From assembly GCA_951406725.2 (NCBI GenBank), contig OX597824.1:97464001-97528000 (forward strand): DNA of 64,000 nucleotides, given 5' to 3'. A program made the position numbers and the translations under genes. The notes under the pieces were generated by a model that searched no databases, was not told the origin of the DNA, and saw only the letters and a program-made list of their open reading frames with translations. Shown here one piece after another: positions 9,399-10,276 of this stretch. Within the stretch, counting starts at the first letter, position 1. Each line of letters opens with the position of its first letter. Source of the stretch: Octopus vulgaris. Taxonomy: Eukaryota.

Positions 9399-9431
<33 letters not shown>

Positions 9432-9434
<3 letters not shown>

Positions 9435-9631
9435 ACCTCGTGAGTACCGCTGGCGATTTTTTTCCTCTGTCTTCCCTTCTCGGGATCTTTCCTTCTCCTA
9501 TGTTTCCGACGAAGAGCTCCGCTCGAAACGTTAAACCCTCCTTCTTCCCTTCTTTCCTGAGCGTCCAATAATACTTTATTTGTTCCACGTCCTCGCGTTG
9601 TTGTGTTTTTTTTGTTTTTTTGTTTAGATTA

Positions 9632-9636
<5 letters not shown>
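9432..9636 (+). mobile_element. (TA)n-embedded ~200-bp HHR-bearing element (family shared with 21835-22008 and 54296-54490)
   Basis: Flanked by (TA)n on both sides. GAAGAGC...GCTCGAAACGT...TTCCYGAGCGT...TAATAC... followed by a T-rich 3' end is shared with the other two copies. Confidence 0.7.
9502..9536 (+). ncRNA. Putative type-I minimal hammerhead ribozyme
   Basis: GUUU-CCGACGA-A-GAGC(UCC)GCUC-GAAA-CG-UU-AAAC. 4-bp helix I, 4-bp helix II, loopless palindromic ACGU helix III (dimer type), GUU triplet, U4C variant core. Confidence 0.72.
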
Positions 9637-9693
<57 letters not shown>

Positions 9694-9723
9694 AAATATG
9701 GGGGTTTAGTTCAAAGGTGATCT

Positions 9724-9831
9724 AAACGACTAGGTTCGCTAGGTAAGTGCTGTAACGGATTACTAGGGCTCCAAGGTTATAACCGAGGCGGTAGTTATGG
9801 AGCCACTGTAGATTTCCGATGCAGCAGATAT
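9724..9831 (-). ncRNA. Degenerate hammerhead-like fold with very long helix II
   Basis: Minus strand: AUAU-CUGCUGC-[CGGA..GGCUCCA..UGGAGCC..UCCG]...GAACC-UA-GUC-GUUU. The core has several mismatches. Confidence 0.35.
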
Positions 9832-9916
9832 ATAATTGTTAAAGAGGACAACAAACGTTAAGGCAAGGCAAACATCTCAAGTCGTATACTTTATTATTAT
9901 TGGAAAAAAATTCGAA

Positions 9917-9955
9917 GTCTTACAGCTGTTTCTGGGATATTCCGTCATCGGACAC
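9917..9955 (-). ncRNA. Putative hammerhead ribozyme, left arm of H1
   Basis: Minus strand: GUGU-CCGAUGA-C-GGA(AUA)UCC-CA-GAAAC(AGCU)GUA-AGAC. Helix I has one mismatch. Confidence 0.55.
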
Positions 9956-10065
9956 AAATAGAGAAAAGGAGAAGGGTATGGCTTAATGAAATTAATCCCA
10001 TTCCTATACTCCTGTCCTCTATGTCGTCATTTTATTAATCTATACCCTTCTCATTTTCCATATTT

Positions 10066-10121
10066 GTCTCCGATGGCGGAATATCCCATACTCTGGGATG
10101 TCCCAGAAACAGCTGTAAGAC
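10066..10121 (+). ncRNA. Putative hammerhead ribozyme, right arm of H1
   Basis: GUCU-CCGAUGG-CGGA-AUAUCCCA(UACUC)UGGGAUGU-CCCA-GAAAC(AGCU)GUA-AGAC. Helix I GUCU/AGAC, 8-bp helix II, palindromic helix III. Confidence 0.6.
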
Positions 10122-10199
10122 TGGATTTTTTTCTAATAATGATAATATATATGACTTGCGATATTTGCCTTGCCTTCCTGTTAGTTGTCCTCTTTAACA

Positions 10200-10276
<77 letters not shown>

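What the first reader, a model, noticed from the sequence alone, without database searches (positions are those of the whole stretch)
9833..10203. Fold-back element H1: back-to-back hammerheads on opposite strands
Seen: a 370-bp palindrome in which each strand carries one HHR in its 3' arm and the antisense of it in the 5' arm. The arms differ by a 17-nt indel located exactly in helix II, and both versions still form a stem. Established: Penelope-like elements often leave inverted pLTR structures. Inference: a MITE-looking element that is really an inverted pLTR dimer. The long hairpin would mask the ribozyme, giving a possible conformational switch and a dsRNA substrate for ADAR or Dicer.
Basis: partly seen in the sequence, partly recalled or inferred. 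Interest (0 to 1): 0.7.

Follow-up and report, generated by a model that had tools for sequence, protein, structure and literature searches.

The report
Old head-to-head Penelope retrotransposon insertion
This mirror-image DNA is one old insertion of a common jumping gene of a known type, likely made when its RNA was copied from two fixed start points into both ends of a cut TA repeat; its two predicted self-cutting RNA motifs are mutated and are unlikely to act as a switch.

Summary
The palindrome is real, but the insertion is longer than reported. It spans 9693-10203, with a 140-nt tail on the left arm only, and lies between TA/CA repeats. It is a doubly 5'-truncated, head-to-head copy of a Hydra-clade Penelope-like element; longer copies carry RT and GIY-YIG with RWK, DKT and CxCX5C motifs. 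It does not move as a unit: its junction pattern occurs once in the genome and junctions differ between copies. All 51 of 51 outward-facing pairs join one short end with one tailed end. Arms of one insertion share rare variants, which fits two primings on one RNA at TA-like sites. Both hammerheads are damaged: U4C in both, A9G on the right, a broken helix I and an almost lost helix II on the left. The 17-nt indel is a recurrent slippage deletion. In read-through RNA the antisense arm comes first and is predicted always to mask the core, so no switch. No RNA read crossed the junction. The architecture is in print, and this scan noted it before in this and many other genomes.

The parts
9693..10203 (.). 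Whole insertion: two 5'-truncated copies of the 3' end (pLTR) of a Hydra-clade Penelope-like element, head to head, 511 bp
   Evidence: family reference aligns 9992-9693 at 87.5% and 10000-10203 at 89.9%
9693..9992 (-). Tailed (T) arm: starts 178 nt upstream of the short-end site and runs through the tail
9693..9832 (-).
9917..9955 (-). Decayed minimal type-I hammerhead: U4C, G.G mismatch in helix I, helix II cut to 2-3 bp by a 17-nt deletion; predicted cut site between 9921 and 9920
9993..9999 (.). Junction with 7 nt of filler, unique to this copy
   Evidence: (1 match genome-wide, itself)
10000..10203 (+). Short-end (S) arm: starts 207 nt upstream of the short-end site and ends at ...TTTAACAATTA
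10066..10121 (+). Decayed minimal type-I hammerhead: U4C and A9G, full helix II (10077-10105), palindromic helix III; predicted cut site between 10117 and 10118
10089..10105 (+). 17 nt present here and lost in the left arm, bounded by the direct repeat ATATCCCA (exact placement ambiguous)
9636..9692 (.). (TA)n target microsatellite, left flank
10204..10275 (.). (CA)n(TA)n target microsatellite, right flank

Best explanation
H1 is a single old, head-to-head, doubly truncated insertion of a Hydra-clade Penelope-like retrotransposon, likely built at the moment of insertion by two primings on one element RNA, and its two hammerheads are likely inert passengers. Shown: parent family and clade motifs, a TA/CA target, one short and one tailed end, a unique junction and damaged cores. 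Inferred: the GIY-YIG endonuclease cuts both strands of a (TA)n tract. One 3' end anneals at the RNA's short-end site, where the element continues TATAT. The other anneals 140 nt downstream at the tail end, where it continues GTATA. Each end primes a cDNA; both stop early (here at -207 and -178) and are joined in the middle with a few bases of overlap or filler. The arms then drifted apart by about 12%, and slippage between two ATATCCCA repeats removed 17 nt of helix II in one arm. Any RNA read through H1 makes the antisense arm first, so the core is predicted to be paired before it can fold.
For: Parent: L184 has RT, thumb, linker and GIY-YIG, then about 1 kb, the hammerhead, the short-end site and the tail, plus an inverted short arm at its 5' end. 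L213 has pLTR plus tail, then an ORF with RRMRWK and SDKT. End rule: 39 of 39 pairs and 12 of 12 further pairs from an independent pattern search are short + tailed; single ends were 36 tailed and 27 short. Flanks start with alternating dinucleotides at 35 of 39 short and 34 of 39 tailed ends. The first bases outside are TATA at 34 of 51 short ends and GT at 36 of 51 tailed ends, matching what follows each site in the element. Not a unit: the H1 junction pattern has 1 genome-wide match. Among 37 tight-junction pairs only L002/L004 agree within 3 nt, and they share 0 and 1 derived sites. One template: arms of one insertion share derived non-CpG variants at 1.89% (106 of 5598 sites, 33 of 51 pairs long enough) against 0.48% permuted. 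Variants found only in the two arms number 7 against 0.77 (0 of 5000 permutations), and 6 of 27 pairs stop at the same RNA position against 0.74 expected. Deletion: 26 genome-wide matches on both U4 backgrounds; it is in one arm only in 6 of 6 informative pairs. Masking: core bases pair with the upstream arm at P 0.9-1.0 on both strands, except one mismatched base.
Against: For H1 itself the only shared derived site is U4C, a common variant, so one RNA is not shown for this copy. Gene conversion between arms could also give shared rare variants. The U4 position is discordant in 7 of 18 pairs; CpG decay of 22% may explain this, but two templates are not excluded. Two of the 6 symmetric junctions sit in the self-complementary helix II and may be alignment effects or fold-back products. 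Frangieh 2024 found priming at RNA sites not homologous to the cut DNA in a Poseidon element, unlike the microhomology inferred here. No TSD can be read inside microsatellites. No cleavage or retrotransposition assay was run.
Confidence: 0.8

Rival explanations
1. Same element and same twin priming, but each arm is copied from its own RNA molecule, for example by the two subunits of an RT dimer.
For: U4 is discordant in 7 of 18 pairs. Contemporaneous source copies would share subfamily variants. An earlier unchecked note (e1-9536500) reports mixed arms in about a tenth of palindromes of another family in this genome.
Against: It does not by itself explain why all 51 pairs are short + tailed. 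Doubletons are 7 against 0.77, and matched stop points 6 of 27 against 0.74.
Confidence: 0.1
2. Fold-back self-priming: one cDNA folds on itself and is copied back, or an antisense template self-primes, as proposed by Arkhipova et al. 2013.
For: Some junctions are symmetric, two of them centred on the helix II hairpin; shared variants between arms are expected; the model is in print (PMC3846280, passages).
Against: A fold-back from the tailed cDNA needs the tailed arm to reach at least as far 5' as the short arm. The short arm reaches further in 20 of 37 tight pairs, including H1 (-207 against -178). A fold-back from the short cDNA cannot make the tail. The antisense-template version was not tested separately.
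Confidence: 0.05
3. H1 is a non-autonomous unit (MITE-like, or a Penelope-mobilised palindrome) that is copied whole.
For: Outer ends are constant across copies, and several palindromes of similar size exist.
Against: The junction is unique, truncation points differ, the ends are asymmetric, and there is a continuum up to 3.8-kb RT-bearing copies.
Confidence: 0.02
4. The palindrome has been kept as a ribozyme switch or as a regulated dsRNA substrate for ADAR or Dicer.
For: A read-through RNA would form a very stable hairpin. U4C is reported to lower but not abolish activity in a viroid (PMC3088659, passage).
Against: Both cores are damaged; masking is one-way; the arms diverge like those of other copies (12.6% against a mean of 11.3%); the indel is recurrent; no read crossed the junction (low power).
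Confidence: 0.03

Closest known systems
EN+ Penelope-like insertions with an inverted 5'-truncated pLTR and a one-sided tail (Craig et al. 2021 PMC8557442 fig. 2 legend; Adineta Pen2a, PMC3846280)
   Same: Head-to-head inverted pLTRs, 5' truncation, tail at one end only, hammerhead in the pLTR, microsatellite target.
   Different: The tail is 140 nt rather than 30-40 bp. It is called optional or 'often' one-sided in print; here 51 of 51 pairs have exactly one.
Hydra clade of C-terminal EN+ PLEs (Craig et al. 2021), including Hydra-1_Obim
   Same: RWK, DKT, CxCX5C linker, CxxC and CxH around the EN, (TA)n target, hammerhead in the pLTR.
   Different: A separate family: the N-terminus resembles Hydra-1_Obim by eye, but the listed hammerhead differs and three short family motifs were not found in any Hydra entry of the supplement. 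It has a long Asn/Thr-rich spacer before the EN and about 1 kb between EN and pLTR.
Minimal type-I hammerheads of metazoan PLEs (Cervera and de la Pena 2014, PMC4209133)
   Same: 4-bp helix I, long helix II, an unpaired base after A9, palindromic helix III predicted to need a dimer; pairs 100-700 bp apart on opposite strands were already reported in Schistosoma.
   Different: An extra A stands between C11.1 and G12 in the three families seen here (selected on a 24-mer that contains it); a U4C lineage exists; both H1 copies are mutated.
Poseidon of Anolis, PAc (Frangieh et al. 2024, PMC11167929)
   Same: Two RT start sites that delimit the tail; both DNA strands cut and extended; AT-rich target; hammerhead cleavage dispensable in vitro.
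   Different: Other clade; PAc start sites lie inside the ORF and are not homologous to the target, whereas here both lie upstream of the ORF and are followed by TA-like bases.

Membership tests
EN+ Penelope-like element | Single ORF with RT and C-terminal GIY-YIG endonuclease linked to this pLTR | tested here: met
   L184 and L191 align to an 806-aa homologue over RT (YRDD/YRDE), thumb and EN. All copies seen are broken. Pfam did not hit the family copies; three homologues hit GIY-YIG below the curated cutoff.
EN+ Penelope-like element | pLTR with hammerhead at both sides of the ORF; tail | tested here: met
   5' pLTR plus tail before the ORF in L213 (about 73% to the family reference, a sister subfamily); 3' pLTR plus tail after the EN in L184, L055, L056.
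EN+ Penelope-like element | Variable 5' truncation, inverted truncated copy | tested here: met
Hydra clade | RWK motif and DKG changed to DKT | tested here: met
   L213 RRMRWK and SDKTGN; L203 SDKTGN; definitions
Hydra clade | CxCX5C linker; CxxC and CxH flanking the conserved E and N of the EN | tested here: met
   CNCRSGRDC, CRLC/CGLC and CKH in L055, L187, L184
Hydra clade | Insertion into (TA)n | tested here: met
Hydra clade | Placement in an RT phylogeny with the reference Hydra elements | not tested
   Assignment rests on motifs only.
Neptune clade (first guess) | CX2-5CxxC linker | tested here: not met
   Linker is CxCX5C.
MITE / non-autonomous DNA transposon | Symmetric terminal inverted repeats at both ends | tested here: not met
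   One end carries 140 nt that the other lacks in 51 of 51 pairs.
MITE / non-autonomous DNA transposon | Many copies of constant length and interior | tested here: not met
   Spans of 215-3844 bp, junctions differ.
MITE / non-autonomous DNA transposon | Superfamily-specific TSD | tested here: inconclusive
   Flanks are microsatellites.
Minimal type-I hammerhead ribozyme | Core CUGANGA ... GAAA ... UH with helices I and II (family level) | tested here: met
   The family majority reads GTCT CTGATGA, helix II, GAAA CAGCTG TA AGAC; the motif is shared by 3 families whose flanks do not align; core substitutions 24 against 44.6 expected, p 4e-4, U4 and G5 left out.
Minimal type-I hammerhead ribozyme | Intact core and helices in the two H1 copies | tested here: not met
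   U4C in both, A9G right, helix I mismatch and 2-3 bp helix II left.
Minimal type-I hammerhead ribozyme | Self-cleavage | not testable with these tools
   Needs an in vitro assay. No pile-up of 5' ends at the predicted cut (-86) among 29 arms (small sample).
Non-LTR retrozyme | Tandem direct repeats each with a hammerhead | tested here: not met
   H1 has two inverted copies and no tandem unit.

The most novel reading that the evidence does not exclude
Hydra-clade Penelope elements insert by an obligatory ordered twin priming on one RNA: the two cut ends of a (TA)n tract anneal to two fixed TA-like sites 140 nt apart in the 5' leader, so every head-to-head insertion has exactly one short and one tailed end. 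This would give a base-pairing explanation for both the tail and the (TA)n preference, testable in vitro.
Probability: 0.55. Interest if true: 0.45.

Novelty: new member of a known kind. Interest (0 to 1): 0.22.

Why it matters
The locus itself is ordinary debris. The family statistics bear on an open question named by Craig et al. 2021: how Penelope-like elements form inverted pLTRs, tails and their microsatellite bias. The strict one-short, one-tailed rule, the shared rare variants and the TA-like bases at both start sites narrow the models and rule out simple fold-back for most copies. It also warns that such palindromes look like MITEs or ribozyme switches when read alone.

Tried and rejected
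Rfam at gathering thresholds: no match. First clade guess Neptune: rejected on linker and N-terminal motifs. First impression that the 17-nt deletion was private to H1 (35 arms): wrong, it has 26 matches. The idea that the two arms come from two subfamilies differing by the indel: rejected, since the deletion is one-armed in 6 of 6 pairs and on both U4 backgrounds. Copies stopping at the ribozyme cut, a lead from earlier notes: no cluster at -86 among 29 arms; could not test it because they select arms that include the hammerhead. Pfam on family fragments: nothing above cutoff. The Atlas gave HTH_animal clusters only, a lead not used further. Expression: no RNA holder listed. In three raw RNA runs 88-99% of laid reads ran on into unlike sequence (other family copies) and depth was zero over 9967-10051, so editing and small RNAs could not be assessed. 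Whether H1 lies in an intron was not tested. Lunse et al. 2017 on dimer-cleaving PLE hammerheads was not held; it may already describe the extra A before G12.

Full report
Observation. The arms 9833-9992 and 10000-10203 are inverted copies with a 17-nt indel, and the RNA folds at -208 kcal/mol, z -23.8, with 0 of 100 shuffles as stable. A hammerhead-like motif lies in the 3' arm on each strand: + 10066-10121 and - 9955-9917. A contig from a public run not on record as RNA spans the junction with 4 differences in 132 nt. Rfam finds nothing at gathering scores.

True extent. Aligning other copies shows that the left arm continues for 140 nt to 9693, where a (TA)n tract begins, while the right arm stops at 10203 before (CA)n(TA)n. 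The element therefore has two fixed 3' ends: a short end (S) and a tailed end (T). The family is abundant: 2276 first-look candidates of which 40 were scored, and 196 exact matches to one 27-mer. A few thousand arms is my estimate.

Parent. Upstream of the arm, longer copies run into a broken ORF. L184 carries RT motifs, thumb, linker and GIY-YIG, about 1 kb more, the hammerhead, S and T, and has an inverted S arm at its 5' end. L213, a sister subfamily about 73% alike, has pLTR plus tail followed 33 nt later by an ORF with RRMRWK and SDKT. With the CxCX5C linker, CxxC and CxH and (TA)n targets, this meets the motif definition of the Hydra clade (PMC8557442, section 11 read). No tree was built. 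Pfam did not recognise the decayed copies; three homologues hit GIY-YIG below cutoff. The family differs from Hydra-1_Obim in the supplement passages seen.

It does not move as a unit. The H1 junction pattern matches only H1. One search examined loci L001-L197 less 26 duplicates and counted ends at 72% identity or more: 39 outward-facing pairs of 215-3844 bp and 63 single ends (36 T, 27 S). All 39 pairs were S + T; one further S + T pair (L133) fell under the identity filter. An independent pattern search gave 12 more pairs among 26 new loci, again all S + T; three loci with a partial tail arm were not counted. Random pairing would give a mixed pair about half the time, so 51 of 51 is about 1e-16 by hand arithmetic. 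Ten of the pairs came from the search with H1 itself, but that query held no tail. Among 37 pairs with tight junctions only L002 and L004 agree within 3 nt, and they share 0 and 1 derived sites.

How the pairs likely form. The element continues TATAT after S and GTATA after T. The flanks begin with TATA at 34 of 51 S ends and GT at 36 of 51 T ends. This suggests that cut (TA)n ends anneal at these sites and prime two cDNAs (inference). Arms of one insertion differ by 11% overall but share derived non-CpG variants at 1.89% against 0.48% in permutations (33 of 51 pairs had 50 or more shared sites). They share 7 variants seen nowhere else in the set against 0.77, and 6 of 27 pairs stop at the same position against 0.74. 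This favours one RNA. Against it: gene conversion could contribute, U4 is discordant in 7 of 18 pairs (CpG decay is 22%), two symmetric junctions lie in helix II, and H1's only shared variant is the common U4C. Fold-back copying of a tailed cDNA cannot explain the 20 of 37 pairs, H1 included, whose S arm reaches further 5'.

The hammerheads. The 24-mer spanning the 3' half has 1069 exact matches. In 97 sampled arms these fall into three families (52, 27, 13) plus 5 unclustered; most keep GTCT CTGATGA at the right distance while flanks and the helix II loop differ (not counted exactly, and the 3' half was selected for). Within the H1 family, nine core positions show 24 substitutions against 44.6 expected by base composition (64 arms, p 4e-4, U4 and G5 left out). 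So the motif was selected in active elements. The majority core is canonical; U4C is a lineage variant, seen as CCG or CCA in 9 of 30 arms picked by upstream sequence. H1 carries U4C twice, A9G on the right, and a helix I mismatch on the left. The 17-nt deletion lies between two ATATCCCA repeats, has 26 genome-wide matches (18 with U4, 8 with C4, 20 fetched), and is in one arm only in 6 of 6 informative pairs. It is recurrent slippage, and it leaves helix II at -0.9 instead of -12.8 kcal/mol.

Switch and dsRNA. On either strand the antisense arm is transcribed first, and the core is paired to it with probability 0.9-1.0 (one mismatched base excepted), already in the prefix that ends at helix I. 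There is no predicted on state. Such hammerheads also need a same-strand partner to extend helix III and cleave weakly (PMC4209133, parts 1-2 of 4 read). A read-through transcript would be a dsRNA like any inverted repeat, but no read from three RNA runs crossed the junction (about 6% of each run, species label possibly not this one). This is low-power and not evidence of silence.

What is known. Inverted truncated pLTRs with a one-sided tail: PMC8557442 (passages, outline, section 11, supplement passages) and PMC3846280 (passages). Hammerheads 100-700 bp apart on opposite strands: PMC4209133. Two RT start sites delimiting the tail, both strands extended, ribozyme dispensable in vitro: PMC11167929 (parts 1-2 of 4). 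U4C lowering activity: PMC3088659 (passage). Also seen: PMC6765202 (passages and part of section 11) and bioRxiv 10.64898/2026.07.22.740005 (part 1 of 5 and passages; its supplements are closed). I did not find the strict S + T rule or a one-RNA test in searches, but subscription papers and Lunse 2017 were out of reach. This scan's notes hold 495 findings with these words in at least 45 genomes and 872 fit a looser look-up in this genome. Several reach the same twin-priming reading; these are unchecked AI notes and not independent support. They call this genome an octopus, which I did not test.

Verdict. A real but ordinary fossil: a new family of a known clade in a known arrangement. The mechanistic statistics are the only part of wider use. 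Interest 0.22.

Noticed in passing
window 9431-9610 (+): A second, unrelated repeat with a minimal hammerhead (core CCGACGA at 9506, 4-bp helix II) sits between TA tracts 80 bp left of H1. It recurs in at least 14 other fetched loci at 71-98% identity, with both CCG and CTG cores. Probably another Penelope-like family; its ORF was not sought.
   Followed up: partly
window 39338 (-) and 61832 (+): Two weaker hammerhead-like pattern hits from a relaxed scan; may be chance.
   Followed up: no
97 arms (e.g. L062, L119): At least three families share the same hammerhead frame with helix II loops from 5 nt to more than 20 nt, and an unpaired base on both sides of the base of helix II (N after A9, A before G12); the A is part of the 24-mer used to select them.
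   Followed up: partly
family-wide: U4C lineages appear in three separate hammerhead-bearing families of this genome; the change creates a CpG, whose decay can return the canonical core.
   Followed up: partly
L060:3-2355 (+): A 784-codon open frame of a different Penelope-like element (RT, CGKPNCGIC linker, GIY-YIG), Neptune-like by the linker definition.
   Followed up: no
L184:2714-3400, L196, L055, L059: The family has a long Asn/Thr-rich in-frame spacer between thumb and endonuclease, like the N-rich inserts described for Adineta Penelopes.
   Followed up: no
L033, L036/L055, L039/L059 (G000:C1:157.2-157.5 Mb): Three copies lie in a local segmental duplication (92-98% alike with flanks), next to the RT of a more distant Hydra-type family.
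   Followed up: no
RNA runs X21-X23 on window 9810-9886: A transcript from another family copy, with a constant unrelated continuation, is seen in all three runs, so some copies are embedded in expressed RNA.
   Followed up: no
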